Source of the DNA: Candidatus Omnitrophota bacterium
GTDB taxonomy: Bacteria; Omnitrophota; Gorgyraeia; Gygaellales; Profunditerraquicolaceae
Assembly: GCA_025453445.1 (NCBI GenBank)
Contig: JALOQJ010000002.1
Coordinates: 6,249 to 70,248, forward strand
Direction: 5' to 3'
DNA: 64,000 nucleotides
Numbering within the stretch: position 1 is the first letter of the stretch; the number at the start of each line of letters is the position of its first letter. Under the pieces are notes generated by a model that saw only the letters and a list, made by a program, of their open reading frames with translations, was not told where the DNA came from and did not search any database. Both the position numbers and the translations under genes were made by a program. This document shows positions 4,771-64,000 of this stretch, in pieces.

Positions 4771-4850
4771 GTAGGGACGGTTCTCAAGCCAAAGCAGAAG
4801 TGTCCCCTTTAAAGGGGACACTTCTAGAACAAATTGAGAACCGTCCCTAC
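4771..4850. repeat. REP doublet: two inverted REP units (GTAGGGACGGTTCTCAA-N8-AGAAGTGTCCC) joined at TTTAAA, forming an ~80-bp near-perfect palindrome
   Basis: Seen directly in sequence. The element abuts the phoR stop codon. The same REP unit flanks the RAYT transposase at 11569 and 12158. Confidence 0.65.
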
Positions 4851-11568: not shown

Positions 11569-11604
11569 TCAGGGACGGTTCTCAACTCAAGGCAGAAGTG
11601 TCCC
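11569..11604 (+). repeat. REP element (left flank of RAYT)
   Basis: tcaGGGACGGTTCTCAActcaaggcAGAAGTGTCCC matches the REP unit at 4771-4850. Confidence 0.6.
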
Positions 11605-11672
11605 TTAATCTCTTCAATTTTTCAAAATTCTTTGTTAGAAATTCAAGATTTAATCGTCTATTTATATAGGAG

Positions 11673-12158
11673 GTGATAGATATGCCTAGAGTAGCAAGGA
11701 TTACTATCGAGAATGCTTATTATCATGTTATCACAAGAGGCAATCAAAAACAATTGGTTTTCATGGAACAGAGTGATTACGACAAATATTTATTAATATT
11801 AAAAAAGTATAAGAAAAAATATAACTTTAAACTATACGCCTTTTGTTTAATGCCAAACCACGTTCATCTGATCCTAGAGATTAAGAATCCTAAGCATGTA
11901 AGCAAAATTATGAAATGCTTGAATTTAAGTTATACCTTATACTTTAATTTAAAATATAAAAAAGTTGGACATCTTTGGCAGGACAGGTTTAAAAGCAAGA
12001 TTATCGAAGATGGTACATATTTATTAGAATGCATAAACTATATCGAGACTAACCCCATAAGAGCCTCTTTGGTACCTCATTTAACAGCTTATCAATGGAG
12101 TAGTTATAATTATAGAGGTACCAATAATGAAATACTAGACCGATTGTTTGCTCTTTAG
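11673..12158 (+). mobile_element. tnpA: IS200/IS605-family Y1 transposase of the REP-associated (RAYT / TnpA_REP) type
   Basis: 161 aa with an HuH motif (MPNHVHLILE) and a catalytic Tyr region (YQWSSYNY). Flanked by inverted REP copies rather than IS ends. Confidence 0.8.
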
Positions 12159-12196
12159 GGGGACACTTCCCGAACGGATTGAGAACCGTCCCTGGT
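12158..12196 (-). repeat. REP element (right flank of RAYT, inverted)
   Basis: Reverse complement reads CCAGGGACGGTTCTCAAtccgttcgGGAAGTGTCCCCC. Confidence 0.6.
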
Positions 12197-34880: not shown

Positions 34881-36133
34881 TTGGATTTTACCTTTCCTTT
34901 TTTATCGAATTGACTTATGCTCGGGTTTTTCCAAAACTCTCTGATTATATAATAACTTTTTTTAGGAATACGTTTATGCAGGCCGTTTTCCAAATCTTGT
35001 GAAAGAGAAACAATCCCAAACCACTCCTCATTCATATTTTTATTGCCCGGCACTTGTATATCAGAATAATAACTGCCATTGGACCAGTTTGATTCGGTAT
35101 CGTGCACAAGCCAACCTTCAGCATAAGCATCATTATGCTTCCACCATTCATCAGTCCACTCGAACATAAACCCGCCGAGGCAATTACCTTCGCCTTCCTT
35201 GCCATTGGCAAGATTATCAAAAATCTGCCGCCACTGAGACTCCAGGAAAAATGCCTGGATATTCTGGTCTTCTTTATTTAAATAAGCATCGTAGCTGTCC
35301 GCACCGAATTCCGCAATCACTATCGGCCGGTTAAAAGTTGCTTTCAAGGATTTAAACAACGGCCCGAACGTTTTGCCTCGATAAATAATGCAAGCGACTA
35401 AATCTATGTCCGGGCAAAATTGCCCGGCAGTATCCAAGCCTACTAATTCACCGTTTCCCAAAGCAACCGGATGATTCCTATCAAGCATATGGATTTCTTT
35501 GGCAATATTATTTACATAAGAATAATAAATTTTTGCGCGCATAAATTGCTGGGTGCGCGGGTTTATCTCTTTATCTATTTCGTCGGTTGACCAGGGATTT
35601 ACCCGTCCAAGGCAGGAATAATTATTTTCATTGCCTAATATCCAGAAAATGACCCCCGGTTCGTCTTTGTACAGGCGGACCATTTCCAGAATTTCTTTTT
35701 TAATCCGCTCTTCAAACTGTTTATTGCCGTAGAGCGGGCAAGGGTATTCCCAAAAGCCCAGCCAATGCCCTAAAGCAGTGCGGATACCATAAAGATTATA
35801 TAAATCACGGATGGCTTGTTTTACCTTTTCCGGATCCTGCCCTGCCTGATAGATCCTGACGGTGTTGATCCCCATTTCCTGCATTAATTTTCCGTCTACT
35901 AACCACGGCTTGGCAGAATCTGACCACCAGTCGTATTCATGGTTTGCTCCGATAGGTGCGGGGTTATAACAAACGCCCTTGATAATATAAGGTTTATTAT
36001 TAATGATTAATTGATAATGGCCGGTTTTTAATTTATTTATATAAACGCAAGGTTTCTTAGGCTTAACAAGAGAAAAAATTAGGATAAAAACTATTATTGC
36101 GGCAAGTACAGAAAAAAATATTTTCTTGAGCAT
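34877..36133 (-). CDS. clan GH-A-like TIM-barrel glycoside hydrolase (family not assignable)
   Basis: N-terminal anchor. GINTVRIY, ILGNENN (acid/base region) and VIAEFG (nucleophile region). Paralogous to the C-terminal half of 37489..39843. Confidence 0.5.
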   Translation of the reverse strand: MLKKIFFSVLAAIIVFILIFSLVKPKKPCVYINKLKTGHYQLIINNKPYIIKGVCYNPAPIGANHEYDWWSDSAKPWLVDGKLMQEMGINTVRIYQAGQDPEKVKQAIRDLYNLYGIRTALGHWLGFWEYPCPLYGNKQFEERIKKEILEMVRLYKDEPGVIFWILGNENNYSCLGRVNPWSTDEIDKEINPRTQQFMRAKIYYSYVNNIAKEIHMLDRNHPVALGNGELVGLDTAGQFCPDIDLVACIIYRGKTFGPLFKSLKATFNRPIVIAEFGADSYDAYLNKEDQNIQAFFLESQWRQIFDNLANGKEGEGNCLGGFMFEWTDEWWKHNDAYAEGWLVHDTESNWSNGSYYSDIQVPGNKNMNEEWFGIVSLSQDLENGLHKRIPKKSYYIIREFWKNPSISQFDKKGKVKSK

Positions 36134-36146: not shown

Positions 36147-36180
36147 GCAGGTAGGCGAGGTTTAAACCTCGCCTACCTGC
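36147..36180. repeat. 34-bp perfect palindrome GCAGGTAGGCGAGGTTTAAACCTCGCCTACCTGC
   Basis: Seen directly in sequence. Intergenic, 14 nt upstream of the 34877..36133 start. Its core GAGGTTTAAACCTC is shared with the four palindromes inside the giant ORF. Confidence 0.8.
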
Positions 36181-36210: not shown

Positions 36211-37431
36211 TTATTCGTACCTTATTTCATCCAGATAGAACGTGGCACCTTCCGGATTAGCGTCTAAATTCGATGACCAGCAAAAACCACCGATAATATA
36301 GGAAGCATCTTTACCTTTTAAATCGATAGTATATTGCGTCCACTCTTTGTTTAAAATCACAGGGCCGATAGTGGCAGTATCTGAATCAGAATACTCCCCC
36401 ATAATCCCGCCGATTTTAAACTCTTCGATTCTCTCGCCGCCATTTGCGCCTTTAGCCCAAAAGGTAAGCTTAGTAGCCTTGGAAAGATCGAAGCCGCCGT
36501 CAACTGTTCCCCAGTTATTTGCCGGGTTCAGCCAATAAATACCCGCCCAGCGGGAACCTTGCGTAGCTTTATTATTATAAATAAGCTTTATGCAAGTATC
36601 GCCTAAATAGGGATCTTCTTTATTGACGCCCTCATATTTAATATCGCTGTAATCACCCATGAATCCCGATGCGATAAAATGATTCTTCGGAGAGGAACTG
36701 TCGGAATAAACATAGAAAGGCATGCTTTCCTGTTTGCGGGTTTCCGGTTTCAGCCCTGTATCAACTTCGTATTTTACATCGTCGATGTAAAAAACAGCTC
36801 CGTTTGGATTCTGATCTGCCGAAGCAACCCAGCCAAAACCGCCGCTGATAAAGGAAAGATCCTTGCCTGCAAGATTAATTGTATATTCTTTCCATGTATC
36901 AGTTAATTCAACCGGCCCCATTTCTACCAAAGTCGAATCAGGATAAGCGCCCTTGATTCCGCCAACGACAAACTTCTGAATTACCTCGCCGCCTTTAGCG
37001 CCTCTGGCCCAAAAGGTAAGCTTGGTCATACCGGTTAAATCAAATCCGCCTTTTTTAGAACCCCAGTTATTCGCCGGATTTTGCCAATACATACCTGCCC
37101 AACCTTGGCCTTGGGATTTTTTCGCACTGTAGCTAAATTGCAGGCAGGTTGTGCCGCCATGCGGATTTTCCATAAATTGATCGTTTAATTTGAGATCTCC
37201 GGAATCACCCATCCAACCTGAAGGTATAAAATGATTATCCGCAGAACGCTTATCCGTATAAACATTAAACGCCTTCTGTCCGGCAGGTTGTGCCGCTACC
37301 GCTGCTTCTTCGGCAAAAGCAAAACCTGCAAACGATATAACGCAGGCAAGCGCTAATGCCATGATACCTATTTTTTTCATTTGTTTCCCTCCTTTTATTT
37401 TAGCTGCTTCTAACAAGTAAAAAAATTTCAT
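36211..37431 (-). CDS. secreted protein with two tandem ~170-aa beta-sandwich (CBM-like) domains
   Basis: Signal peptide and an internal duplication (FNVYTDKRSADNHFIPSGWMGD... / FYVYSDSSSPKNHFIASGFMGD...). W- and G-rich. Confidence 0.5.
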   Translation of the reverse strand: MKFFYLLEAAKIKGGKQMKKIGIMALALACVISFAGFAFAEEAAVAAQPAGQKAFNVYTDKRSADNHFIPSGWMGDSGDLKLNDQFMENPHGGTTCLQFSYSAKKSQGQGWAGMYWQNPANNWGSKKGGFDLTGMTKLTFWARGAKGGEVIQKFVVGGIKGAYPDSTLVEMGPVELTDTWKEYTINLAGKDLSFISGGFGWVASADQNPNGAVFYIDDVKYEVDTGLKPETRKQESMPFYVYSDSSSPKNHFIASGFMGDYSDIKYEGVNKEDPYLGDTCIKLIYNNKATQGSRWAGIYWLNPANNWGTVDGGFDLSKATKLTFWAKGANGGERIEEFKIGGIMGEYSDSDTATIGPVILNKEWTQYTIDLKGKDASYIIGGFCWSSNLDANPEGATFYLDEIRYE

Positions 37432-46912: not shown

Positions 46913-49900
46913 TTACCTCCCAAAATTTGGCGGCGGCTGATACTTAGGTAGCTGTATCTGTGGCATTGGCTGATATTTTGGCATTGTCATCGGCTGAAAT
47001 TTTGGTAAATCAAATTTCATTGGCGGCGAATAAAAATTCGGCGTCTGAAATACCGGCTGTTGGAATCTCAACTGTTGAAAATCAACACGTGGCATTGAAA
47101 TATACATCGGCTGAGAAAATGGGTGCGTCTCATAATGAGTCCAGATTTGTGTTTCTCTGGTGCGCGTAGATAAATCAGGGTAGCTTATTTTTTGCTGCAT
47201 TTTAAATGAATAATTAAAATACGGATCTGATATAGCCCCGGACATGGAACGAGAAAATGCCATATTCGGCACTAATGGCTGCCATGGTAAATCAGTAATT
47301 GGAGTATTAATACCTATATCTTTAAGAAAACTATTGCGTCCACTATAACAATTTTTCCCTAAGCCGGGGATATTGAACATATTATATGATTCGATCTTAC
47401 CACGATAATTAGCTATATTATCAAAAACTTGCTTTGTGGCTATAGGATCAACTGTCAAGGTCCTATATATAACCAATCCATCCAAGATCTTTTTGTCTAC
47501 TGAATTATATATCCCCTCAGTTGCAATAAGTTTAGAAATATTTTTATCTTTAGGATTAAAATCTATTGTTTTTGTGAAATTATTGTAAGTAACGCTTATA
47601 AAGGTATGATCTTGGCCTGCTATTATAGGGCTATATCCTATTTCTACCCCCATATTTGGCCTAGACAACTCCTTCATCGACCAACCACTAATACGCGTAT
47701 TAGGTATTAATGAATTCTGGATCAAATCCTCTCCAATAAAACCAGCCCGATCAGGAAGATTTCTTAAAGCTGAAGCAAAAACATGTTTAGTAAAAGGATC
47801 CTGTTCCTGCTTCAAAGATTGGGCAAAAGTTTTTGTTAAATCAGGATTACCTGGTAATCTTCCGCCCAAAGACAAAGCTGAGCTTTGACGGATGCCAACA
47901 AAGTTGTCATGAAGGCCGGCAGAAAGTATCGGCATCATTTTAGGTGAATCAATTTTGCCTGCAACATCAATAGCACTCTGGCGCAACAAAGAATTATTGC
48001 TACGAAAATTATTCTCCACAATATTGATTATTTCCGGCGACTTAATTTTATCCAAATAGATAGTAGCGGTTGCCTGAACCATAGGAGTAGGGCCCTGACG
48101 AGCTAACCTTAGAAAAGAATCGCTTATAGCCGGATCTATGCCTACCCTACTATTTGTTACCCGCATTGCTGCTATCTGTAATTCCGGAGCAGAGCTAGAT
48201 AAAAAAGGCCTGCCCATCTCAATCGCCTTCGGGCAACTTGATTGGCTTAATCCTGACAAAATCCCCAACTGAGTATTCAACTCCCTTTCTTTTAACATCC
48301 GGCTAATCGGCTCTTCTAACCTAGGATAATCCCCGATATGTCCTGATAAAATACCTGCCGCTGTAGAAGACACATCCGGAGATGGATCGCTTAATTTCTG
48401 AAATGCTTTATCAAATACGACTGGATTCTCCTTAAACCAACCCGGCACAGGCAATAATGCTGCCTGCCGCACAGCAGGCTCTGGATCATCTAAAGCCCCG
48501 ATAATGATTTCTTTAGCCTGCGGTTCATTAAAATCTGCCAAACCATAAATTACCACAGAACGAACCTCTACATCAGGATCTTTAGCCATCCCTACTAACA
48601 CATCCAATACCTCTTTACCGCCGATTTGCGCCAATGCTACCGCTATCCTTGTCTTAGTTTCTTTTTCTATGCCCGGCTGTTGCAACACATCTTTTAGATG
48701 AGACACTGCCCGCACATCACCTAATTTACCCAAAGCTGTGATTGCCTCGTTGACGATATTTTGATTTTTACTATTCAAAAACGAAACAAACAACTCAAAG
48801 GTACGTGAATCATCCATATTCCCCAGTGCCCAAATAGATACACAACTCAATTTCTCGTCGCTGTCATAGGCTGATTTCATCAGCGCATCTGTTACTTTTA
48901 CTTCGGAGAATTGTCCCAAACGAGACGCCACATAAACTCGCATCTCTGAATTGTAGTTCTTCGCATCAGAAAGAATAGTAATAAGCTGATCTATGCATTC
49001 CGGCTCACCCAGCTCTGCCAAAGCCAATGCGGCATATATAGAGACATATTTTTGTATTTTGTCCTTACTATCCCGCGAATAGTTATTGGCGTATATTGGT
49101 AGTTTATACTGAACTTTTTGCTTCACAATTTCTTCTTGCGATAAAGCAAAGGAAAGAAATCCGGGATTAGATATTTTATATTGGCCCCTAAGGCCAGTAA
49201 TCAGAATATCTCTACCTGCAGGATTACCTGCTAATCCCAGATTCATTGCTGCGTAGAATGAAATTTTAAAATCATCATTCTTTAAGGCCCTTAAGTACCC
49301 TTGAATTAAATCATCTTTTGTAATACCGATTTTTTCATAAAAACTACCCTGAGGATCTAGAAATACCGGGTTGTATGTATTAAATCCTAAAGACGTCTGA
49401 TAATCCACTAACCCTTGTTTAGCTCTTTCATCAAAGGCATTTGATGATGGAAAAATCTCTGGATAGTACTGATAGATAAGACAATATTTAGAGAATGCAG
49501 CCATATAATTTCCTTTACTAATATTTACTTCTGCCAGCCTGCGGCTTTCCAAAGCATCTTCTAACGAGAAACCAATAAAACGGATATACTCATTACTATA
49601 AGTCTGTGTCTTGCTGTTTTTAGCTTTAGCGATAGGCAAATTCTCATAATCGATATCATGCATACACCCACCGGTTGTACTTATAAACCCTATTATCAAT
49701 GCTATTATAACTCCTTTTTGCGTAAATCGGAATAACTTAATTACTTTATTGGCAACGAGTTGCAGAGCTGGCCAAACTTGGCTGATTCCGGAAAATAACC
49801 AAGGGCATATTGAAAATATGATGAGAATTATTGGTGGGGCAAGGCTAAAAATACATTCCCCCACTTGCCCCAAGGCGCCGAAGTTATCCACATTGTAGCG

Positions 49901-52900
49901 GAGGTTTAAACCTCCGCTACATGCGGCAGAGGCGAATGAAGGCAGTAGCGTTGCGCCGATTACCAAACCAAAGCAAGCTACGCCCAGCATTGTGCAAACT
50001 TCGCTGATGCCTTTTTTGCCGCCGCCCCTGTCCGGGCCAGCGCCGGGATTTTGTTGTGTGAATTGTAAAGGCTCAAAAGATTCGGAACGCGGGTCATATT
50101 TTGTTATTTTATTATCGCAGTAATGAAAAAAGGTGGGGAAGTTCCCAAGCGGGAAAGATATCTCCGTTCTTTGCTTTGAGGTAAATTGAGCTAAGTCGTA
50201 TTCTTCAGAAGCAAATACCATAATAAACGACTTATCTCCTCTGGCTCCAGACGTCTGGTAAGTCCCCCTCAATAAACCCAAAGCGCCTAAAGCTTTTTCC
50301 TGCGTGTATGAATCTTTTATAAACGGATAATAGCCAAATACAAAAATTTGCTTATATTTTTCTGTTAATAATTCTGAAAAGTAATAAGGGCGTTGTTTTA
50401 TTAAATCGGCAAAGTTAATAACAAGGGTTTCTTGAGCATCATACCCTTCCTTTATTTTCTCTATATAAAGTTTGGCTACCTCATCAGGGACTCCAGAAAT
50501 GAAAACTGGCATTACATCTGAAATGGCCTTTTGGAAATCAGCGCATTTATGTAAGGCTAATTCTAATTTTTCAGCACTGCTTGACGAAGCGCCCCCGCCC
50601 GCGCCTCCGTCAATATTGTTATTTTGGGACACTTCTGGCATAACAAGGCTTTTAGCATTAGATTTAGTCTTAGGCCAAACTAATCCTATTTCATAGAATA
50701 GTTTTTTCAACTGAGAAGGCATATTCCTTAGAAGATATTTATATCCATTTATTGCGTTCGTAATTTCCAAACTCTCTGTTCCGATTATTTCAAAAGCTAA
50801 TTCTCCAGAGAAAAACTTTGAAATAAATTCTTTAAGTGCATTTTGTGGAGTATCAACTACAGACGATCCGAAAGTAACGCTGAAATATGCCAAAGAAAAT
50901 TTCTGATTTTTATTATTAAGCGCTTGTGTTTGATCTACTAATTGCCTAAATAAATCTTCATGATCTTGAGATGCTAATTCAATATAATCATGCAAAAGCT
51001 CATGACGGATATTTGGTTCTGTAGTTTCTTTCGGAACAACTACTACCCGCTCAAGATGTTTATTGAACTTACCATCAAAATATTCAAATACTCGTAAATA
51101 AAATTCTCTAATCTTTGGTTTATTAGAATTCTCTACACAATGCCTATTCAAATATACGCCCTTAGCCCAGAAAGCGTCCGGAGTATATTTTGATGCTATC
51201 TCCATAATATCCCTGAAGGATTCATCATCCGAAATCACCTCAACGCCCGGGATTATAAATCCATCCCTAATAATTCCCTTGGGGAGAATTGGGGACGTTT
51301 CTATTTTTCCGCCTTGTCGCATTTCCCTATCTTCCGGAATATGCTGAAATAACCGCCTGCCCCCGAACAAATCAAGTAACTTCTGCGACGGATAGACATC
51401 GCCCATTCCCCGCGGCTGGATAGGATTCTTATCTGGCCAACGCATATCAACATAATGCGGATTGCCCTTTTGAAACCCTTTCCCGCCCGCGCCGCCGCCG
51501 CGCGGAAATAGGCCTTCCGCCATTATCGCTGCGAATAATTTTGAGGTTTCAATTGCTGTCTCCAAAATAGAATCTCTGATATACTCTGCGTCCCTGCGGT
51601 ATGTATACACTGACAGGCCGAGTTTCTGCATAATTTCCCTTAACTCTTTCTTAAATTTCGGCCTTTCGCTTAATGACTGGAAACGCCAAAGGTATGCCCG
51701 AAGCAGATAATGGTACGGCGTCTCTGCGTAAGCATTATATATATTCGGACCACGCGTGGCCTTATCGCATACTTGAATTATATGCTCCGCATCCGAGTGG
51801 AAAGCCGATTTTCTTACTGCCGCTATTTTTTGATAAACACGCATCCAGCTCAATACTGCAATTTCGTCCTCTGTAATTTTAGGGATAACAACTTGGCCAA
51901 ATAGGACTTTCGTATCATGCGGTTTCATATACGCGCTTAAACTACCCTTAATATATTCGGGCGCAATATCCACAGGCACAAGATGTATATGAATAGGAAG
52001 ACCCTTGTATTCAAGAGGCACTCGCCATAAGGTTAAACTTCCGTAGGCCTTTCTCATATCTTCTACAACAACATAAGTGTCGTAATCATTAAAAGTATCA
52101 TTTTCCCCAGCGTAAACAGCTGAACCGTATGCGATTATTGCCTGTAAATTTGTTGCGCCAAATAAATCTATAATAGATTGTGTATAACCAAATTTTTTCT
52201 GCTCTTCTGTACTCAATTCTGCCCGGCGGGCTAAAGCAGCTACTCTTGCGCTTCCCGGAAATAACGCCTTCAAATAATCTATTAATTTAAGTTTTATTTC
52301 CATAAGCGCTTCTCTGGGAGAGAAAGAAGAGATATCCAGAAGCTCATCTTTCTCTATTTTTCCTTCAGTTATCAGTAAATTTCTTATTTTTAGATATTTC
52401 TCATATTTCTCCTGCGCCCGGGCTTTGTTAATTTCTTTTTCGTGTATTATCTCATCATCTAGTGGCCCAATTATCCTGTTTATCCCATTTTGTAAATCAA
52501 GTAACTCAAAATCAACCAAAGGTATTCCCGCAACCTCTGCTCCCATCAAACCTGTGGTTGTCCCACTACCTAAGATTTCTTCTGCTTCTCTATAATGAGA
52601 CCGGTCAAAATACCTTAACCACTTTAGCTCATCCACGGACCAAACTGTAAGTTCTATGTCCTTGGGCAACTGCTGCAATTGCGCATCTACAAAAGCCCAC
52701 GTCAAAGGCCCATTGACGATTATGCATTTATGCGTTACATTCTCTATTTTCTTTTTACCTTGCGCTAGTATAGAAACATCTGTATCAACTGGTATTTTAA
52801 GATTAATTGGAAGACTGTCTTTGTGCCGAGCCGAGCTAGTGACCCCACCCCCGCCCGCGGCGCGGACACCATCTTGAGCGTGCGCCGGGCTGCCGGCGGT

Positions 52901-55900
52901 TTCGCCCCTGCCTCTTTTCTTGCCTAACGCCCCCATATTCCTATGATGCGCTAACCGAAAATCAAGGATATTCCCCCCTAAAGGAAATTCCCTGCCCATT
53001 AGCTCAGGCCAAGTTATTCCATCAAATCCGCCTAGCGATGGAATATCCTTATAATGCATATCCTGATTTATCCTGTCCCTATTGCCACCAGCACCGCCGC
53101 CAGATACCAGATATTCTAGCGTTAAAGAATATACTGCGTGATTTTCGATACTTATACAGCCACCGACAAACTTAATAATAAAAGGAGCGGACTCTTGAAT
53201 CGTTTCTTCGGTATACCCCCTGGCCTCAACTGGATTAAAGCTAACCCCATCTTCTCCTTTTAATATATCCCTAACAAATAATTTCTCTTCATGTCCGTCA
53301 AAATCTAAAATCTCAACATCTACTTCTTGCTTACCAGCGCAACTATGGAACCAAAATTCAAAATGCCTATTTTCACCTGAAAGCTGCTTCTCCACTGGGC
53401 CTTCTTCTACGATAATGCGCGATATAAGTCGATACGGAACTATTGCTACATCAAGCGTTTTATTAACATAAGGCCGGATTTCTCGCTTCTGAAAGAAATG
53501 AGAACAATCTTCTATCGCTTCATAATCCTGTCTTATTTTACCAAGGCCAATTTTTTGTTCTTTATATGAACGCTTAAATTTTAAGACGTTTATAATATAG
53601 TAAATAGCCGCGACCGCCCAAAACAATACAAGCGTAGAAGCTACGCCAAGCCCAGAAGCAGCTTTCCTATCATCTAAAACAAAATAAAATAATATACCCG
53701 GGCAACTTAAAGTCGCGATACTGACTAAGTAAACTACCCAGCGAAAGGATACCCTGCGTTCTTTTTCAGCTTTATATATTGAAGCTATCTTGTCTTGGCA
53801 TAAACGCAGCTTATTCCCAACGCGAATTTTCTGAAAGTGCCGCTCTATTTTTCCGCTAGGATATGGTTGTTTGTTCTCTAGTGCGCCAGAACTATGATGT
53901 TTTATATTGAAAGCTCGAATACTACTTTGAGGATATTCATTGGGATTGTAACCTGGCATATCACAAGAGACTGCGGATAATTTATTTTTAGCATCAAGAA
54001 AATATAAAATCGCTATGACGAGTAAAATAATTACGATGACCTCCGGTGGAGCAAAACTGAAGATACATTCTTTAATCTGCGCCAAGGCGCCGGAGTTATC
54101 CACATCGTAGCGGAGGTTTAAACCTCCGCTACATGCGGCAGAGGCAAATGAAGGCAGGATTGTTGCGCCGATTACAAGAGCAAAACAAATTAAACCCAAC
54201 ATTGTGCAAACTTCGCCGATGCCTTTTTTGGCGCCCCCGCCCGCGCCGCCCCTTTTATTTTTGGTCCCAGTTGATTTCTGCAAAATATCGTATTTGTTCA
54301 ACATGGCTACCATACAATTTAGGATTTCGTTCGCAAAAACCTTGGATTGCTGATAAACCATATAAGAAGAGGACCTGCATATAAAGACGGCACTGAACCT
54401 AAAGGAAAGACCTTGTAATATTTGCATGAAATTCTGGATTTCTTCTTCAAACCGATAGGCCGGCATCTCATTGAAAGCATCCAAATCAAGGCTTAATACG
54501 TATTGCCCATTATCCTGAGGCCATATCAGCGCGTTTAACCCATTCTCAGGAACAATATTAAATGTCATGTTTGCTGTTTTTCGTATTCTTTTCACAGGGC
54601 TGTCGTAGGAAACTAAATAATATCCTTTTGCCGTTTTTGCATCGAAGGGAATTCCAACCCCGGGTCCTCTCGGCCCTCTATGTGTACTGACGTGTTCTTC
54701 ATAAGCAACTTTCAAAACCGGTGAGGATTTATTAAAATAAACAAATCTACCAAACAGCGATCTTAGGCTTGGTATCCAGAATAATTCGCTCAAGTCGTTT
54801 TCTCTGACCAGTGCGGTAAAAATACCGCCTTCATGCATTGTCTTTTCGGCATAGCGCATGACTGTCTCAAGCGACGGACGCAACGGTATTCCCGTTTTAT
54901 AATCCGGCATCACTGTTGCCCCGGTATCATCATGAAAATCATTGTTTAAAACGATCAACCTGTTCCCGAGTTTATTTTGCCGCTGCAGTATTTTCACAAC
55001 CGGAAGCAAAAGCTGATGATCTTCCGCGACATACAGAGGAACATTTTGTGCGCCTGAAACTGTTATTTGGAATAACCCGCCTCCCGGATAATCGAACCGA
55101 CCATCTTGTTGCGCGGCAATGAGTTTAACCGTGTCACCTTCTATCTTAATTTCAGCGGCTTTTTGGCATCGCATAACGGCATATTTTTTCTTCCAAACAA
55201 GAAGCCGTTGCCATTTTTCAAGAAGATATTGTCGATACCATCTTCGATCATTATCATTTTTGATAGTGATGGCGTATTGTAATTTTTTAACCAATACTTC
55301 CTTCGAAAGTCCTGTCTCGTTAAAAACACTTACCATCTGCTTAATAGCAGCATCCTGATCGTTTTTATGACACAAAATCTCATTAAGCAATTCCTGCATC
55401 CTTTTTTCCTGCTCGCCCTTGTTGGATGTCCATCTTTGATCTTCATTAATTGAAGTTATGCGTTCCAGATAATGTTTTTTTCCTTCTTTAAGCAAATGCT
55501 TCTCGCGCCGAACTGCCTCCGGTGAATGAAAGCGGCTGCTGTTCTTTATTTCCTGTTCAACAATCTGTAAAATTTGCCTGTGCCATTCAGGATGATATTT
55601 TTCTGATACCGGTATTTCGTCATGGTGTCGGGCAGTGTTCCGATCTCCGGCGTGATATCCTTCTTCTTCCAGGATAACAGCTAACGTCTCTACGCTTAAC
55701 ACTTCAAACAACTGGCGTGTCATATATATATTTTCTTCCAAACGCCCTGCGGTTCCGGCATGGGCCAAAACATATTCATCGCCATCCTTGATGATATAAT
55801 ACGGATGCATTTCATCTCCCTCCAAAAGCACAAGATTGTGCCTCTCCATAAAGGGCGGGTATGTTCTTGTCATTAAATTCTCAATAGCTGCCAATTTTAA

Positions 55901-58900
55901 CAAAATCGATTCAGGCGTTCCTTTTGGTAAGAAGACTAGATGCAGGTCCGTTATTTTGATAGTGTTCTTAAGTCCAATTTGGTCTGCAATAAATTTATTA
56001 ATACGGTCATGGAAGGCAGGGGTGTACGTCCCTTGAGTTCCTAAATTATTGGGCGAACTTTGTATAATAATGGGGACGGTTCTATTTTTTGCCCGCCAGA
56101 GGAATGTGGCAACTCCCACAAGGGAAAATAATGCGAGGATAGGCAATAGGTATGAAGAGAAAGCGGCTGTCTGCATTTCCTGTCCCGGCGGGGCGAGTGA
56201 GAAAATACATTCCCTAACCTGCCCCAAGAAGGCGCCAAAGTTATCCACATCGTAGCGGAGGTTTAAACCTCCGCTACATACGGCAGAGGCAATCGAAGGC
56301 AGGATTGTTGCGCCGATCGACGCGCCAAGGCAAGCTACGCCCAGCATTGTGCAAACTTCGCCGAGGCCTTTTTCTTTCCCGCCCGCGTTGCCGGCTTGAG
56401 CAACCTCTCTGATATCTTCATCGGTTCTTCTCCTAAAGGAAAAATATTCGAAACTATCCCGAATTACTAATAATTTTTTACTCAGTATTACAAAATCATT
56501 CATTACAGAATTAGTGAAAAAACTCTTTGGTACTTGGTTCCTTATCGTATTCAGTTTTGCTATCGAGCCTTCGCCTTTTGTTTCGACTTTAGGCTTAGCG
56601 TAAAATGTCTCAATATTTTCTTTGCTAGAGAAAATAGCCATTAATTCAGGTTGCCCTGTCAATAGTCGCACAAGTTCCTCAGATTCTGCTTTTAATGCAA
56701 TTAGTTGTTTCCTCTGAGATTTTCCTTTACGATATCCACTAAAAATGTCTTGAAGCGAACATTCAAGAGAAAGTAACTTATTCTCTAAATCGTGCAAGTA
56801 AATATATTCTCTAATAACTTTTTGGGCTTCGTAAGATAGCAATTGGCCTTCTATCTTCTTATTAAAATAAGTTTCAAAAAGCCGATTTTCCATTACAGAA
56901 ATACAGTTATTACAATACGACTGATAGGCATCAAAAGCCTGAAGTAAATCAATCCGTAATAATATATATTCGAGGGCTGCGGGTTCCTTATCTTGAAAAT
57001 ATTTTCTGATTTGATTATAAGCCTGTAGCCTATTCGCTAAATCAAATGGCTGTTCTGTGTTTTGCCTGACTTCGTTCATTACAAGATTCTTTAGTTTCTG
57101 CGGCAGACCGCATTTCCATGCAACCGGCACTTGTTCGGGGATATTTTTAATTTCTATTATTTTCATAATTGCTTGTTTAAAAACTTTTAACCTGCTTCCG
57201 CTCCCTCGCGGCCCTAGGTTACTTTTATAAAACCTCCAGCCCATAAAGCCGCTTCTCCCAAAAGGAAACGCCAACTCCATCGGGTCAAAACTCCTTAGCA
57301 GGTCGCCTTTCGCTGAGAATAACGAACTGTCATTATAACGAACACCGGGGCCTATTTTGCCACCCCCGCCCGCGCCGTTGGCCCGCGAACCGATCAAAGA
57401 GTCATCAGAATAGCCCACCCCATAGAGCGTACAGCCCTTCCAGGGTGCGAAGTCACCCTCTTCTTTCCGATCATCCAGCTCCACGTAATACCGGCGGGAA
57501 CCCTTAGGATCCTCTACCAGATAAACACTTTCCTCAAAACGTTTTGTCTCTGTTGCATCCATCACGGCGAAAAGGGCCTCCCGGATGATGGATGCGGGCA
57601 AAAATGGTGCCGCGTATCCTTTCACAACCACGGCCATGGCTGTGTCGAGATGGCGCAAAAATACTATAGCCCGTTCAGAAGACATTCTCCGGATAATCTC
57701 CAAAATCGCGTCATTCCTTTCTACCTCCGGAGCCAACTCGGCAATCAGTTTCTGCGCAGCCGCGTTACGAAGAACTTCATCCGGACGCGTAATCATCCGC
57801 GTCATGCTCATGATTTGCCTGTTATCAATACTATCGACCTTCATACATTTTTCGATATTCGGCATCTGCTCTTCGAGCCAATCCCGGGGCCAATAAAATC
57901 TCGGAGGAACTGCCAGCCCTTCCCGGAGAAAATCGCGCTGCAGTATCCTTAACTTTTTACCCGCCTCTTCCCGAGCATAACCCATTGCCTGAAGGCGGGC
58001 ATGGATCAATGGCAAATAATACCAAAACATGTTGAAAGCAGTCGTCTCACTTTCGTAAAGATACTTTCCCGCTTCCAAAGCTTCGACGGGATTAATACCT
58101 TCCAAGAAAGAAAGCATAGCCTCGCGGCTCTTTCGTCCGGCCAAAAGCGCGGCAACCGGTGAGGCAATGCAGTGATGCATTAACAAATCCCGCCCCTTTT
58201 CCTTTATAATCAAACCTTTAATTCCAACTAAAACATCGTCAGAGAGAAGAAGAGCCAGACGCAAGTCTCGATCATCAAGGTCAGCGCGATGAACGTCCGC
58301 CAATAAAGACGCGATCTTAGCTTCAGAGAGAATCTTCCGGGCCCGCTCTTCCATCCCGGACAACGACAGCCGCGAGAGAAATGCCGGACGTAAGACGCCC
58401 CAAGGATAGGAACTCTCAGGGAACCCTACCAATTCCACTAATGCAGGATACTGCTGCGCGTAATTAACAACTCCAATCTTTCCGTTTTGTACGGCCCTTC
58501 CAATAATATTATCCACTTCCACTGTAGTCAGATGGCTTGGAACTACCTGCAAGAGATCCCTAGTCAGCTTCTCCAGAGAATCCGCTCGCCCGACGGCGTC
58601 CTCTAACAGTACCAATCCTAAAGAACTCCATCCCGCGCATGTAAGAATCTCCTTAACACTAAAATTATGGTCGCAGAGAAATACATCATTAGGATAAATA
58701 TGATGCGCCTCATGATTGATAATCTGCCACATTAACTCTCCAATGTCATAGAGATGCTCCGTATTAAGGAAGGACGCCCGATAAAGAGGAAGGAATGACG
58801 CGCGATAAAGAAGCTTGAAAAGATGCGCCGGTAGAAGGGCTTCACCCTGAGCGGGCAGGGCAGCGGCCACGATGAATTTATTAGGGCCTTCGTAAGCCAG

Positions 58901-61900
58901 ATACATGTCGCGGGCATCCGGCTCTCTGCCCGAAGGATAATAAAACCGGTATCGTGTCCGGTGCATACTTTCAATTTCTTTCTTCGCATACTCCGGGTTA
59001 GAATAATGATGCTTACGGACATACTGTTCGACCATAGAAAAAATATTCGCAAGCTCGGGATCGCTGGACGCTTCGACAAAACGGCCCGTCTTTAAAAGAC
59101 CTTCGATTGTCCAATTCAATTCCTCTCTGCCATACCCGCGTGAAATGCCTTCGGCGCCCTGATCGCCGCCCCCGCCCGCGCCGCCGTCATCTATAGGCTG
59201 CATCAGGCTGCCTAAATTGACATCTGAATCATTCTTTCCTACTCCTATTGGCTGTAATAATATCGAGCGAGGCTGTCTAAATACGCAGGCATAAGCAAAC
59301 TGAACAGGATTAAAATGGTTTAAATAATAACCGACGAGCAACAATATGATGATACCAATTTCTACTTGACTTAGGGGCAAGCATAGTATATTCTTAAATG
59401 AAGGGAGGAAATATATGCATAAGAAACAATATATGGTGATTATTGAAAGGGACGAGGACGGTATGCTGGTAGGTACTGTTCCCAGCCTGAAAGGGTGCCA
59501 TAGCCAAGCTAAGAATATGCCAACTTTACTTGAACGAATTAAAGAGGCGATCCAGCTCTGCTTAGAGGTAGAAAATCCTAAAATTCCGTCTTTAGAATTT
59601 GTCGGGCTGCAAGAAGTTGAAGTTAATTGATGTCGAGGCTCACTCCCCTTAGGCCAACCGAAGCCATCCGCATTTTGACCCACTTGGGTTTTGAACGTAT
59701 CCGCCAAAAAGGCAGCCACATTTATTTTCGCCATCCTGACGGCCGCTCTACGGTAGTACCTTTTCACAAAGGCGAAGACTTGAGCAAAGGCCTTTTGAGC
59801 GCAATCCTTAGGGATATTGAGTTGCCGTGGGACGAATTTATTGCCGCTAAGTGAGTTCCTACAAACCCTGCAAGCCACCCAAATAAAAATCGTAACAGGT
59901 AAAATTAAAATCGCCGGATAAGCGAGCCTGTAAATATACTCTCCAACTTGCCCCAAGGCGCCGAAGTTATCCACATTGTAGCGGAGGTTTAAACCTCCGC
60001 TACATGCGGCAGAGGCAAATAAAGGCAGGATTGTTACGCCGATTACAAGAGCAAAACAAATTAAACCCAACATTGTGCAAACTTCGCCGATGCCTTTTTT
60101 GGCGCCCCCGCCCGAATTCTTTAACATTGGTCCCACGGCGCTATCTTTGACGAATCTTTCAAAATATCTAGTGAAATCAAAAATTCCTGATTTTGAAAGC
60201 GCTTCGGTAATACTGGTTTTAAAAATATTCCCTACTACCGCATATTTATTTCCCTTGGGAATCATAATATCTCCGCGAAAATCTACAAGAACACAGGTAC
60301 TTCTTTCGTCTGATTTTAGGCATGCTATTTTTAATCTACCAACGTATGGCAAATTAAAAAGACTCTGGGTAACTTCCTGAAAATCCTGGTCGCTGACAAA
60401 ATAGTCATTTGCAATAGCAGAAGTCGCTACTCTCCCAGCAGTAACATATTGCCTTATGCCCCACTCGGCGACACCCGCATCGGCAAGCTGTCGACCCAAC
60501 AAAGGCAAATCAGCTATATTCTTTTTTGTAGCCACAGTAGATACAGCTAATACAAATTTACGCCTGATTAATCTTGAGAATAGTTTCCAAACATTTCTGT
60601 ATTGCGCCCTAGATCTCTCTCCTCTTACAGCAACGTGGACATCTTCAGTAGAGCCTTCTATTGGGATAGACAATGTATCAAGATAAAGTTCAAGTTTATC
60701 AATTATATTTTCATCTAACAGATCACCAGAAATCTGCAGACAAACTAAAATTCTCTGCTCATAAATATATTTTATTATTTCAATAATATCGGGGATCAAC
60801 AAAGCGTCTCCTCCGGTGATAACCATAGACCTGATCCCTTGTTCCTTTAATTTATCTATAATGCGCTTTGCTTCTTCAAAAGTAATTTCTCTTTTGGAGC
60901 ACGAAGCTTTTCTCCGGAAACAAATCGGACAGTTCACTTCACAGGAATCAGTGGCATAAAATGCTATATGAATAATTTTCGGATTCTGTTGGTGCAGTTT
61001 TCCTATCTGCCCCCCGCCCGCGCCGCGGAGGTTTTTGTCAAACACTGGTCTGCTGTAGCCGGAAAGCAACTTGACATTTATCGTTGGAGGTGGTATGGTT
61101 ATATTGTGAGGTGAAAAACTATGAATAAAAATGCCCGGGAAGCCAAAAAACATTTGCAAAGACTGCGCAAACTTACTGCCAACACTCCATCCCCTTTCAA
61201 AGGGATGACTCTTGAAGAGGCAATCACGAAGATGCGAAAAGTTAGGGAACAGTTGTGGGAGGAAAAGCTTGCATTTCGTCCTTGATACAAATGAATTTGT
61301 GGGCGCGATAGGGTTAGTCAGGAACCCACCTTCGGAAATCCTTTTTAATATTCTCATAGAATCATCACCGCGGCATACCATCCATGTCCCCCGGCTGATA
61401 ATTAACGAAGTAAAACGCAATATTCCTCCTAATATTTTCACGGAATTCATAAAGATTGTCATACCGATTGTTATTATTGACGAAGATATCTTTGTGCCTT
61501 TTGAGATAGGCATAAAATATGAATCTGCCGGCCTAAAACCCGCGGACGCATTTATCGCCGCATACGCCGAATGGACGGGCGCTGAAGTATTAGCGACTGA
61601 AAACAGGCATTTTCTCTCCCGGCAAACCAATCTTCCTTTTAAGGTCATGAATGCCGAACACTGTCTTAAAATTTTAGGCAAATAATACCAAACCTTACCA
61701 ATCTTTCTTGACATCCACCATATTCCCTTTATTAGCTTATACACCGGCCCGGTAGGAAAATTGTAGAGAACAGACCCGCCCCCGCCCGCGCCGCCGCGTG
61801 GAGTTTTACTCTGCAATGCTTCATAAACATCAATCGCCTTTATGCCTAATTCTTTCCCTGCCTGAAAATCAGTAAACCTTCCGTTTATAACACTCATCCC

Positions 61901-63970: not shown

Positions 63971-64000
63971 AGAAAAACCATCAAGGTCCTTCCTGTTTAT

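What the first reader, a model, noticed from the sequence alone, without database searches (positions are those of the whole stretch)
49850..60114. Four copies of a ~185-bp repeat encoding a conserved two-TM anchor, each carrying a 26-bp perfect GTAG...CTAC palindrome around GTTTAAAC
**Seen in sequence.**
- Copies sit at 59932-60114, 56205-56386, 54063-54252 and 49850-50046 and are more than 85% identical.
- Each begins (protein N-side) with the GC linker motif.
- Each encodes GGGAKKGIGEVCTMLG-[TM]-SAACSGGLNLRYDVDNFGALGQV. In copies 2-4 this is followed by ECIFSLAPP and a second, non-conserved hydrophobic helix.
- Inside the TM-coding part is the perfect palindrome GTAGCGGAGGTTTAAACCTCCGCTAC.
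- The 5'-GTAG head plus a palindrome is the architecture of REP elements cleaved by RAYT transposases. A RAYT gene is present at 11673.

**Possible interpretations.**
- Each copy marks the conserved 5' end of a membrane-anchored cassette gene captured into the array.
- Or a REP- or MITE-like element has propagated in-frame.
- Either way, a coding repeat with an internal perfect palindrome recurring four times within one ORF is highly unusual.
Basis: partly seen in the sequence, partly recalled or inferred. Interest (0 to 1): 0.8.

Follow-up and report, generated by a model that had tools for sequence, protein, structure and literature searches.

The report
REP-like palindrome inside repeated membrane joint
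Four copies of a short membrane-spanning "joint" in a giant Omnitrophota gene each carry, read in frame, a 26-base perfect palindrome that belongs to a repeat family normally found between genes across this phylum, so this is mobile-type DNA absorbed into a coding linker rather than a new kind of gene-capture signal.

Summary
Four about 185-nt repeats (83-93% identical) lie in one minus-strand ORF that is open to the window end and is called as 9533 aa in a JGI contig. Each repeat carries the perfect palindrome GTAGCGGAGGTTTAAACCTCCGCTAC.

- **The repeat:** it encodes a Gly linker, a KK motif, TM1, a roughly 30-aa loop and TM2. This is a membrane hairpin joining modules of an Omnitrophota giant multi-enzyme protein. 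It is under purifying selection (pN/pS 0.35-0.5).
- **Relatives:** the joint recurs in one other Omnitrophota MAG, attached to unrelated modules, both with and without the palindrome peptide.
- **The palindrome:** it codes CSGGLNLRY in the loop, not in the TM helix. It belongs to a family GTAG-N6-TTTAAA-N6'-CTAC. All 67 instances examined are perfectly complementary, with nine arm variants. The family occurs in at least 23 Omnitrophota genomes, and 47 of 50 copies are intergenic.
- **RAYT:** the window's RAYT is flanked by a different GTAG REP.

My best reading is a GTAG-REP-like element carried in frame, as with known intragenic REPs and Rickettsia RPEs, and multiplied together with the joint. 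Its surroundings show no synonymous change, either from hairpin constraint or from gene conversion.

Separately, two intact toxin-antitoxin pairs lie antisense inside the still-open giant ORF.

The parts
46913..64000 (-). 3' 17 kb of a giant ORF (5695 codons in the window, open to the window end; called as 9533 aa in the JGI contig). It consists of modules separated by Gly/Ala linkers.
   Evidence: Pfam finds AlaDH/PNT, radical SAM and HEAT domains in this frame. The codon-usage score favours this frame almost throughout.
59870..60115 (-). Joint copy A: NSGGGA linker, KKG, TM1, ASAAC-SGGLNLRY-NVDNFGALGQV loop, TM2
56099..56395 (-). Joint copy B: linker, TM1, loop, a longer spacer, then TM2
54008..54253 (-). 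Joint copy C, preceded by the full GC linker RGGAGGGA
49796..50038 (-). Joint copy D. A third hydrophobic segment follows at 49658-49714, ahead of the HEAT-repeat C-terminal module.
59978..60003 (.). Perfect 26-nt palindrome GTAG-CGGAGG-TTTAAA-CCTCCG-CTAC (copy A). In the mRNA the stem extends to CCGCAUGUAG../..CUACAAUGUGG.
   Evidence: The 44-nt RNA fold is -29.3 kcal/mol with z = -8.
56252..56277 (.). Perfect 26-nt palindrome (copy B)
54107..54132 (.). Perfect 26-nt palindrome (copy C)
49895..49920 (.). Perfect 26-nt palindrome (copy D)
59967..59975 (-). TGTGGATAA tail (identical to the DnaA-box 9-mer) 2 nt 3' of the palindrome. The same tail sits at 56241-56249, 54096-54104 and 49884-49892.
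   Evidence: 6 in the window against 0.54 expected. The same tail follows the palindrome in L004, L007, L045 and L050.
36147..36180 (.). Intergenic member of the same palindrome family with compensated arms (GCAG-GTAG-GCGAGG-TTTAAA-CCTCGC-CTAC-CTGC), between two co-directional minus-strand genes
4771..4850 (.). REP doublet (REPIN-like) of the other family: GTAG-GGACGGTTCT..AGAAGTGTCCCC-TTTAAA-GGGGACACTTCT..AGAACCGTCC-CTAC. It has the same GTAG...TTTAAA...CTAC layout with longer arms.
11571..12195 (+). RAYT-like Y1 transposase gene (11673-12158) flanked by inverted REPs of the GGGACGGTTCT family (11571-11605 and 12157-12195)

Best explanation
**What the repeat is**
- The four repeats are paralogous copies of a linker plus membrane-hairpin joint: Gly-rich linker, KK, TM1, a roughly 30-residue outside loop, TM2, then basic residues.
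- The joint staples successive modules of an Omnitrophota giant multi-enzyme protein to the cytoplasmic membrane. Both neighbouring modules stay on the same (cytoplasmic) side.

**What the palindrome is**
- It is not part of the joint's protein design.
- It is a copy of a phylum-wide, GTAG-headed, REP/REPIN-like palindromic repeat, GTAG-N6-TTTAAA-N6'-CTAC, here with a 3' tail TGTGGATAACTT.
- The family normally sits in intergenic spacers.
- It has one stop-free frame, which gives the same peptide in either orientation. It can therefore sit in a tolerant loop and be translated as CSGGLNLRY(N/D)VDN.

**How the four copies arose**
- The element was most likely acquired by an ancestral joint, because homologous joints exist without it.
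- It was then copied together with the joint as the joint was reused between modules.

**Why the sequence around it is frozen**
- The absence of synonymous change over about 60 nt around the palindrome reflects DNA-level forces, not peptide function.
- One force could be the constraint that keeps every family member a perfect hairpin.
- The other could be gene conversion among the four copies, nucleated at the palindrome.

**Status of each step**
- Shown: repeat anatomy, family membership of the palindrome, its mainly extragenic habit, joints lacking it, and nucleotide-level invariance.
- Inferred: direction of the event (capture rather than loss), membrane topology, and the cause of the invariance.
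For: **The repeats and the palindrome**
- Four repeats, each with a perfect palindrome; 0 expected by chance.
- The host ORF is a giant Omnitrophota gene with AlaDH, radical SAM and HEAT modules. This matches the published class.

**The joint as a membrane element**
- Nearly all convincing hydrophobic segments in the 5695 aa belong to the four joints. They come in TM1/TM2 pairs with K/R on both cytoplasmic flanks.

**Two layers of constraint**
- Between copies, pS is about 0.3 and pN/pS is 0.35-0.53, so the peptide is under purifying selection.
- Codons 27-47 (ASAACSGGLNLRY.VDN.GAL) show 0 of 18 synonymous-variable columns, against 9 of 19 elsewhere (Fisher p = 0.001).

**The palindrome family**
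- The 20-nt core occurs in 50 loci from 23 Omnitrophota assemblies. In 47 of these the full GTAG..CTAC is present although it was not part of the search pattern.
- 47 of 50 copies lie outside ORFs of 100 aa or more, mostly 5-50 nt from co-directional genes.
- All 67 matches to GTAG-N6-TTTAAA-N6-CTAC in 403 kb have perfectly complementary arms. There are nine arm variants, one of them intergenic in this window.
- Only one frame is open through the element.
- In-frame copies occur in a MiaB-like gene, an RRM protein and a 1297-aa ORF.

**Joints with and without the palindrome**
- An exhaustive profile search of 1.84 billion representative proteins finds the joint only in MCU0652444.1 and MCU0652608.1, both from one other Omnitrophota MAG. 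There it is fused to unrelated modules.
- One of those joints has CSGGLNLRYNVDNFGAL. Two have ASAA-N-RY, which is 6 residues shorter. One lacks the whole ASAAC..VDNF stretch.

**Mosaic relationships among copies**
- Informative sites switch from AC|BD (8 sites upstream of the palindrome) to AD|BC (3 sites just downstream) and back again. This pattern is expected from a conversion tract.

**Precedent**
- Intragenic GTAG REPs and RPEs are documented (PMC3733652).
Against: **Missing data**
- No DNA was obtainable for the palindrome-less joints. Insertion versus loss, and the exact element boundaries, therefore rest on protein alignment alone.

**Weak RAYT link**
- The RAYT in the window is flanked by another REP family. 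No RAYT was seen flanked by the 26-mer.

**Departures from classical REPs**
- Here the GTAG is fully paired with CTAC, and the element is a perfect palindrome.
- Classical REPs are imperfect and species-specific. The identical 26-mer in 23 species-level genomes is more conservation than selfish REPs usually show, and it hints at a host function I have not identified.

**Thin or uncertain support**
- The conversion signal rests on 3 informative sites.
- The genome scan returned exactly 50 loci, possibly a cap, so copy numbers per genome are unknown.
- Topology comes from a hydropathy scan, not from a dedicated predictor.
Confidence: 0.6

Rival explanations
1. The palindrome is kept in the joints because it works at the RNA level. 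In this reading it is a very stable hairpin in a transcript of 28 kb or more, and it does one of two things. It may act as a 3'-exonuclease barrier or processing site that sets the stability of transcript segments, as REPs do between cistrons. Or it may slow the ribosome just after TM1 has been synthesised, giving time for membrane targeting.
For: - The hairpin is -29.3 kcal/mol with z = -8.
- It contains GGAGG paired with CCUCC.
- It lies directly after TM1 in all four copies.
- Intergenic family members sit inside operon spacers, where they would be transcribed.
- Nucleotide invariance goes beyond what the peptide needs.
- REPs are reported to stabilise mRNA (PMC3733652).
Against: - All 67 family members are perfect Watson-Crick palindromes, with a self-complementary centre TTTAAA and no G-U pairs in the arms. 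This symmetry is expected for DNA-level recognition, not for an RNA element.
- Homologous joints work without the palindrome.
- No Rfam family matches.
- No T-run follows the palindromes.
Confidence: 0.15
2. The joint with its palindrome is an active recombination joint. Identical palindromes and 185-bp homologies, all in the same reading frame, are the places where modules are added, deleted or exchanged. The agent would be RAYT-type single-strand cleavage at GTAG, hairpin breakage followed by homologous repair, or a dedicated recombinase. On this view the giant gene grows as an in-frame cassette array.
For: - The same joint is fused to unrelated modules in another MAG.
- Similarity between copies is mosaic around the palindrome.
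- Two foreign toxin-antitoxin cassettes sit between linkers or joints.
- A RAYT and REPs with the same GTAG...TTTAAA...CTAC layout are present in the genome.
- Contigs of the other MAG end exactly in joints.
Against: - Most module boundaries (nine) carry only the Gly linker, with no joint or palindrome.
- No structural difference exists between the two assemblies available.
- No recombinase was found next to the gene among the ten neighbouring ORFs scanned.
- The RAYT's own REPs are a different family.
- The mosaic signal is weak, at 3 sites.
Confidence: 0.12
3. The joint is an internal lipoprotein-type signal (KK, hydrophobic core, ASAA|C). The giant protein would be cut there by signal peptidase II, releasing lipid-anchored modules as from a bacterial polyprotein.
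For: - In three of four copies the pattern K-K, a roughly 28-residue hydrophobic stretch, then A-S-A-A-C fits the lipobox rule (recalled from PROSITE PS51257, so this is knowledge-based, not tested). The Cys lies 33 residues after the first K.
- A second lipobox-like segment (ISTTGGC) precedes the HEAT module.
- Signal-peptidase-II domains are reported inside some Omnitrophota giant proteins (10.64898/2026.06.07.730766).
Against: - Copy B has V at position -1.
- The Cys codon TGT is formed by T plus the first two bases of the palindrome. Palindrome-less homologous joints read ASAA-N, with no Cys. The lipobox look is therefore a by-product of the inserted element.
- TM2 follows immediately, which gives a hairpin rather than an exported domain.
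Confidence: 0.06
4. The explanation lies entirely at the protein level. On this view CSGGLNLRY..VDN is a functional loop motif, the identical codons reflect recent duplication, and the resemblance to intergenic palindromes is irrelevant.
For: The peptide is identical in all four copies and in one joint of another MAG.
Against: - The rest of the repeat has diverged at synonymous sites (pS about 0.3), while this block has none.
- The same 26-mer is overwhelmingly non-coding elsewhere.
- Joints lacking the motif exist.
Confidence: 0.04
5. The repeats are an assembly artefact, either a collapse or a chimeric duplication.
For: Contigs of a related MAG break at these joints, so the joints are hard for assemblers to resolve.
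Against: - The four copies differ from each other by 7-17%.
- They lie in one continuous open frame between unique modules.
- A second assembly agrees over 21 kb, including two copies.
Confidence: 0.01

Closest known systems
GTAG-tagged REP / REPIN elements mobilised by RAYT (TnpA-REP) transposases (PMC3733652; PMC3337134; PMC3479197; PMC8266576)
   Same: - A GTAG head on a short (20-40 nt) palindromic stem-loop.
- Several copies per genome.
- Mostly in spacers between co-directional genes.
- Occasional in-frame intragenic copies.
- Stem variants with compensating changes.
- A RAYT-like gene flanked by REPs, and a REP doublet with the same GTAG...TTTAAA...CTAC layout, in the same genome.
   Different: - This element is a perfect palindrome in which GTAG pairs with CTAC. 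Classical REPs are imperfect and leave GTAG single-stranded at the foot of the hairpin.
- The centre TTTAAA is invariant.
- The identical 26-mer is shared by at least 23 species-level genomes, whereas REP families are usually species- or genus-specific.
- The RAYT in the window is flanked by another REP family.
- No cleavage data exist.
Rickettsia palindromic elements (RPE) and other intragenic REPs (e.g. in Opitutus terrae) that are read through in frame (PMC3733652; Ogata et al. 2000, from memory)
   Same: Palindromic repeat DNA sits inside an intact ORF. It adds a short peptide in a tolerant loop or linker without breaking the frame.
   Different: - RPE-1 is 100-150 bp, whereas this core is 26 nt (about 40-57 nt with its flanks).
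- The host site here is itself a repeated TM-hairpin joint, so four copies arise by duplication of the host segment rather than by four separate insertions.
Omnitrophota giant proteins ('Archaeovorins' and multi-enzyme metabolic-cluster giants; 10.1101/2023.11.21.568195; 10.64898/2026.06.07.730766)
   Same: - A single ORF of about 10,000 aa.
- It mixes cytoplasmic-type enzymes (radical SAM, dehydrogenase), HEAT repeats, many dark regions and many TM helices.
- The source phylum is Omnitrophota.
   Different: The papers do not describe a recurrent TM-hairpin joint, Gly/GC linkers, palindromes or antisense genes (0 text hits for linker, glycine and palindrom).
Bacterial lipoprotein signal peptides (lipobox, signal peptidase II)
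   Same: The sequence KK + hydrophobic core + ASAA|C is present in three of four copies.
   Different: - It is internal rather than N-terminal.
- A second TM helix follows it.
- The Cys is supplied by the palindrome and is absent from palindrome-less joints.

Membership tests
GTAG REP / REPIN | Short palindromic stem-loop tagged at one end by GTAG | tested here: met
   The element reads GTAG-CGGAGG-TTTAAA-CCTCCG-CTAC. GTAG/CTAC is present in 47 of 50 loci although it was not part of the search pattern.
GTAG REP / REPIN | Repeated within genomes, with sequence variants that keep the hairpin | tested here: met
   Up to 7 members occur in a single 8-kb locus (L009). All 67 matches have perfectly complementary arms, with nine arm variants. 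Whole-genome copy number was not obtainable.
GTAG REP / REPIN | Predominantly extragenic, between unidirectional or convergent genes | tested here: met
   47 of 50 copies lie outside ORFs of 100 aa or more, mostly in short spacers between co-directional ORFs (the ORF calling was crude).
GTAG REP / REPIN | A cognate RAYT gene flanked by the same REPs | tested here: not met
   The window's RAYT-like gene is flanked by GGGACGGTTCT-type REPs, not by the 26-mer. The only other RAYT homologue found (L019) lies 2 kb from the palindromes.
GTAG REP / REPIN | Binding and cleavage of the single-stranded element by RAYT at or near GTAG | not testable with these tools
   This needs an in vitro assay.
In-frame intragenic palindromic element (RPE-like) | Member of a dispersed repeat family, located inside an intact ORF and read through without a stop or frameshift | tested here: met
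   There are four copies in the giant ORF. Others occur in L046 (MiaB-like), L050 and L014. The element has a single open frame.
In-frame intragenic palindromic element (RPE-like) | Homologous host sequences exist without the element | tested here: met
   Joints in MCU0652444.1 and MCU0652608.1 lack CSGGLN, or lack the whole ASAAC..VDNF stretch. This is protein-level evidence only.
Lipoprotein signal peptide | Lipobox [LVI..][AST..][GAS]-C after a basic n-region and a hydrophobic core, conserved among homologues | tested here: not met
   Copy B has V at position -1. Homologous joints have N in place of C. The Cys codon is created by the palindrome. The rule was recalled from memory, and no predictor was run.
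Integron-type cassette array | Cassettes with their own ORFs, separated by imperfect attC hairpins, next to an integrase and attI | tested here: not met
   The modules share one ORF without internal starts or stops. The palindrome is perfect and lies inside the joint rather than between cassettes. No integrase was found among the ten neighbouring ORFs scanned; the rest of the window was not scanned.
Omnitrophota giant multi-enzyme protein | Very long single ORF from Omnitrophota that mixes many unrelated domains with TM helices | tested here: met
   The JGI call is 9533 aa. AlaDH, radical SAM and HEAT domains are present together with 11 or more hydrophobic segments. The palindrome relatives are all in Omnitrophota MAGs.
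Known RNA family (Rfam) | Match to a curated covariance model | tested here: not met
   No Rfam hit lies at the palindrome in eight loci, even at E up to 1.

The most novel reading that the evidence does not exclude
Omnitrophota giant genes may be built and remodelled by in-frame capture of DNA at their Gly-linker and TM-joint boundaries. A GTAG...TTTAAA...CTAC palindrome gives the same stop-free peptide in either orientation. It would therefore be a frame-neutral break-and-join site, used by RAYT-type or hairpin-processing machinery. This would explain three observations: the same joint links unrelated modules in different genomes, the copies are homogenised around the palindrome, and foreign cassettes (two antisense toxin-antitoxin pairs) sit between joints while the ORF stays open.
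Probability: 0.1. Interest if true: 0.85.

Novelty: new variant of a known kind. Interest (0 to 1): 0.5.

Why it matters
**The giant gene**
- This work gives a concrete anatomy for how one Omnitrophota giant gene is stitched together: Gly linkers coded by a fixed GC motif, and a reusable two-helix membrane joint.
- It shows that such genes absorb mobile-type DNA while keeping a single reading frame.

**The palindrome family**
- The work defines a previously undescribed, phylum-wide family of perfect palindromes (GTAG-N6-TTTAAA-N6'-CTAC).
- The extreme conservation of this family suggests a host or RAYT-linked function worth testing.

**Practical point**
- These joints break short-read assemblies of giant genes.

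**Significance of the palindrome-in-ORF observation**
- Intragenic REPs and RPEs are already known, so the palindrome inside an ORF is not by itself a new principle.

Tried and rejected
**Searches that found nothing**
- A word-indexed profile search of the joint against 5.8 billion proteins gave no hits. It evidently misses these long proteins, because the exhaustive search later found two.
- A back-translated scan of JGI metagenome contigs gave 71 pattern matches (probably palindrome + VDN copies), but none encoded the joint.
- A DNA scan for ASAA(C) + palindrome in metagenome contigs gave 0 matches. The source contig itself is not in that collection.
- A scan of viral contigs for the palindrome core gave 0 matches, so there is no sign of a phage origin.
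- Rfam gave no match at the palindromes.
- Exact look-ups to obtain DNA for P0002 and P0003 returned 'not on record'.

**Spurious hits**
- P0001, P0004 and P0005 are low-complexity or tandem-repeat matches, not joints.

**Ideas considered and dropped**
- Internal translation start at the conserved ATG (CTMLG): there is no Shine-Dalgarno sequence at the right distance.
- Intrinsic terminator: no T-run follows the palindrome.
- CRISPR repeat: there is no spacer array.
- Inversion (shufflon-type) between palindromes: the antisense cassettes are bounded by linkers, not by palindromes.
- attC site: no match to the core sites.

Full report
**1. The observation**

Four direct repeats are present at 49831-50031, 54043-54243, 56188-56388 and 59914-60114. 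They align over about 185-200 nt, with pairwise identities of 83-93%. The 26-mer GTAGCGGAGGTTTAAACCTCCGCTAC occurs exactly four times, once per repeat. No further copies appear even with three mismatches allowed, and none is expected by chance. A JGI metagenome contig (3300037461, Ga0392394_0000319) matches the window at 99.995% over 21.3 kb and contains two of the copies. The copies differ from one another, so collapse or artefactual duplication is excluded.

**2. The host gene**

All four repeats lie in one minus-strand ORF that runs from 46913 to the end of the window with no upstream stop. JGI calls it as a 9533-aa product. Pfam recognises AlaDH/PNT, radical SAM and HEAT-repeat modules in this frame. 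A codon-usage score favours this frame nearly everywhere.

The modules are separated by nine Gly/Ala linkers. These are coded by a recurrent GC-rich DNA motif, GGCGCGGGCGGGGG, which occurs seven times in the giant ORF and nowhere else in the window. Its codon choice is strongly skewed relative to the rest of the genome.

Relatives of the palindrome are almost all in Omnitrophota MAGs. Giant multi-enzyme, TM-rich ORFs are a described feature of that phylum. Neither paper mentions linkers or palindromes.

**3. What the repeat encodes**

Each copy encodes, in order:
- a Gly linker;
- K-K/E-K-G;
- a hydrophobic helix (EVCTMLG...ILPSFASAA);
- the loop C-SGGLNLRY-(N/D)VDN(F/S)GAL.Q..EC.FS.APP;
- a second, poorly conserved hydrophobic helix;
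- basic residues.

A hydropathy scan shows that eight of about eleven convincing hydrophobic segments in the 5695 residues belong to these four units. With basic residues on both flanks, the simplest topology is an in-out-in hairpin. This keeps the flanking modules, which include cytoplasmic-type enzymes, on the same side. That topology is inferred.

**4. Two layers of constraint**

Nei-Gojobori counts give pS of about 0.3 and pN/pS of 0.35-0.53 for five of six pairs. A and C are close, at 93% identity. The peptide is therefore under purifying selection and the copies are not very recent.

Yet codons 27-47 (GCC TCT GCC GCA TGT AGC GGA GGT TTA AAC CTC CGC TAC .AT GTG GAT AAC ... GGC GCC TTG) show no synonymous difference in 18 amino-acid-conserved columns. 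Elsewhere the figure is 9 of 19 (Fisher p = 0.001). In the mRNA the stem extends beyond the 26-mer, pairing CCGCAU with AUGUGG, and the fold is -29.3 kcal/mol with z = -8.

Phylogenetically informative sites group AC|BD upstream of the palindrome (8 sites), AD|BC just downstream (3 sites), and AC|BD again further on. A gene-conversion tract around the palindrome would leave this pattern. The evidence is thin.

**5. The palindrome is a phylum-wide, mostly intergenic repeat**

- **Distribution.** A scan of one genome per GTDB species with the 20-nt core returned 50 loci, possibly a cap. They come from 23 Omnitrophota-type assemblies plus one unrelated hit.
- **Conserved ends.** In 47 loci the unsearched flanks complete the same 26-mer. 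Beyond it the stems are often extended by 3-12 further complementary bases that differ from locus to locus.
- **Reading frame.** Two of the three frames contain TAG or TAA. Only one frame is open, and it reads SGGLNLRY on either strand.
- **Location.** 47 of 50 copies lie outside ORFs of 100 aa or more, typically 5-50 nt from co-directional genes.
- **Arm variants.** Variants found by chance in the same loci keep GTAG, TTTAAA and CTAC but change the 6-nt arms in a compensated way: GGGAGG, CGGACG, CCGACG, TGGGGG, CTGACG, GGTGGG, GGCACC and GCGAGG. All 67 matches to GTAG-N6-TTTAAA-N6-CTAC in 403 kb are perfectly complementary. One variant lies intergenically in this window at 36147-36180.
- **Negative searches.** No Rfam family matches, and no viral contig carries the core.
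- **In-frame copies elsewhere.** The element is read in frame in a MiaB-like methylthiotransferase of a complete genome (L046), in an RRM protein (L014) and in a 1297-aa ORF (L050). It also supplies the last residues of an FAD oxidoreductase (L004).

**6. Relation to REP/RAYT**

The ORF at 11673-12158 is a Y1 transposase. It scores 77.7 bits on the NCBIfam REP-associated tyrosine transposase model (cut-off 80), against 29.7 bits for IS200.

It is flanked by inverted copies of a different REP, GGGACGGTTCT..AGAAGTGTCCC. The same REP, with a GTAG head, forms a doublet at 4771-4850 with TTTAAA at its centre. That is the same GTAG...TTTAAA...CTAC layout as the 26-mer, but with longer arms.

In six loci from other genomes these REP arms bracket the 26-mer at about 20 nt on each side. 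One arm is read in frame after TM2 of copy B, at 56073-56083.

The 26-mer therefore belongs to the same REP landscape. A cognate RAYT flanked by it was not found, so membership of the RAYT-mobilised class is not demonstrated.

**7. The joint exists without the palindrome**

A word-indexed search found nothing. An exhaustive profile search of 1.84 billion representative proteins found two true relatives, MCU0652444.1 (4348 aa, partial) and MCU0652608.1 (1396 aa, partial). Both come from one other Omnitrophota MAG. They share only the joints with the window protein, and the modules are unrelated.

Their four joints read as follows:
- one has ..SVACSGGLNLRYNVDNFGALAQV..;
- two have ..ASAANRYLATAQ.., six residues shorter and without the Cys;
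- one lacks the whole ASAAC..VDNF stretch.

The palindrome peptide is therefore dispensable for the joint. The Cys that makes the sequence look like a lipobox is coded by T plus the first GT of the palindrome, so it arrives with the element. This argues against an ancestral lipoprotein-signal function.

Both relatives end inside a joint at a contig end. This shows that the joints break short-read assemblies.

**8. Interpretation**

The best-supported account has four parts:
- **(a)** The 185-nt repeat is a reusable linker plus TM-hairpin joint of Omnitrophota giant proteins.
- **(b)** The 26-mer, with its 3' tail TGTGGATAACTT, is a GTAG-REP-like element carried in frame in the joint's loop. 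The same tail follows the palindrome in L004, L007, L045 and L050 and probably in 71 metagenome stretches. Documented intragenic GTAG REPs and Rickettsia RPEs behave the same way (PMC3733652).
- **(c)** The four copies arose by duplication of the joint, not by four separate insertions.
- **(d)** The frozen nucleotides reflect hairpin-level constraint, gene conversion, or both.

What the palindrome family does for the cell or for itself remains open. The identity of the 26-mer across 23 species-level genomes is more than typical REP families show.

**9. Rivals**

An RNA-level role, as a stability, processing or pause site, is possible. The strictly Watson-Crick, self-complementary design and the palindrome-less joints argue against it as the primary reason. 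An active recombination or cassette-capture role is the most interesting reading that is not excluded, but most module boundaries lack the joint. Cleavage at an internal lipobox, a protein-only motif and an assembly artefact are each contradicted by specific results.

**10. Seen in passing**

Two segments of the giant ORF with poor coding scores are antisense to intact toxin-antitoxin pairs:
- HicB (59415-59630) and HicA (59627-59854; 72 bits);
- a VapB-like ORF (61121-61285) and a PIN/VapC ORF (61212-61685).

Given the protein sequences and the genome's codon usage, the chance that the giant frame stays free of stops across all four genes is about 8e-6. The open frame is therefore maintained over roughly 500 codons of antisense overlap. 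This deserves its own study.

Noticed in passing
window 59186-59869 and 61025-61774 (+ strand genes inside the - strand giant ORF): Two intact toxin-antitoxin pairs lie antisense inside the giant ORF, and the ORF nevertheless stays open across them. The pairs are HicB 59415-59630 with HicA 59627-59854, and a VapB-like ORF 61121-61285 with a PIN/VapC ORF 61212-61685. A synonymous-codon shuffle gives a joint probability of about 8e-6 for no stop in the giant frame. The giant-frame peptide in these stretches looks like junk (rich in C, W, F, S and R) and has a poor codon score.
   Followed up: partly
window 50588-50608, 51482-51499, 52844-52861, 53084-53101, 54230-54250, 57359-57376, 59165-59185, 61010-61024, 61775-61795: Module boundaries of the giant ORF are Gly/Ala linkers coded by a nearly fixed DNA motif, GGCGCGGGCGGGGG. 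The core GCGCGGGCGG occurs seven times in the giant gene and nowhere else in the window. GGC/GGG/GCG codons are strongly over-used there. The VapBC cassette is bracketed by two such motifs in direct orientation. GG-rich linkers could be cleavage sites for the C39 (double-glycine) peptidases reported in other Omnitrophota giant proteins. This was not tested.
   Followed up: partly
window 49884-49892, 54096-54104, 56241-56249, 59967-59975 (also 63129-63137 and 2652-2660): A perfect DnaA-box 9-mer (TGTGGATAA, reverse complement TTATCCACA) lies 2 nt 3' of every palindrome in the joints, as part of a 12-nt tail TGTGGATAACTT. The same tail accompanies the palindrome in L004, L007, L045 and L050. The window has six copies against 0.54 expected. 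Part of the tail pairs with CCGCAT to extend the stem. Whether DnaA binds it is unknown.
   Followed up: partly
window 4771-4850; 11571-11605; 12157-12195; 56073-56083: A second REP family (GTAG-GGACGGTTCT..AGAAGTGTCCC) forms a head-to-head doublet centred on TTTAAA downstream of the gene at 4851-6632. It also flanks the RAYT-like gene on both sides, and one arm is read in frame (AKNRTVP) just after TM2 of joint copy B. In L013, L014, L031, L036, L044 and L047 these arms bracket the 26-nt palindrome.
   Followed up: partly
window 36147-36180: This is an intergenic 34-nt perfect palindrome, GCAGGTAGGCGAGGTTTAAACCTCGCCTACCTGC. It lies between two co-directional minus-strand genes (36211-37431 and 34877-36133) and is a compensated-arm variant of the family found in the joints.
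   Followed up: yes
L046 (CP070780.1, complete Omnitrophota genome), palindrome at locus 3384-3409: The 26-mer is read in frame (..EKIVDSSGGLNLRYLEEAR..) between the N-terminal domain and the radical-SAM domain of an apparently intact MiaB/RimO-like methylthiotransferase. This is a clean example of intragenic carriage in a housekeeping gene.
   Followed up: partly
L043 2208-2310 and L009 (same contig JAUYBI010000069.1): There are tandem 33-nt repeats of the half-site AGTAGCGGAGGTTTAAAC.. next to a full palindrome. In L009, seven family members with three different arm sequences lie within 8 kb, forming a local cluster of the elements.
   Followed up: no
proteins P0002 (MCU0652444.1) and P0003 (MCU0652608.1): Both giant-protein fragments of the other MAG end at the same residue inside a joint (..VGVLIALVLII), at a contig end. 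P0002 fills its whole 13,044-nt contig. The joints are therefore assembly break points, and giant genes carrying them are likely under-reported. The word-indexed protein search missed these proteins, whereas the exhaustive search found them.
   Followed up: partly
window 49658-49714: A third hydrophobic segment after joint D ends in a lipobox-like ISTTGGC. It precedes the roughly 1000-aa HEAT-repeat C-terminal module, which would then be the only module in the window placed outside the membrane.
   Followed up: no
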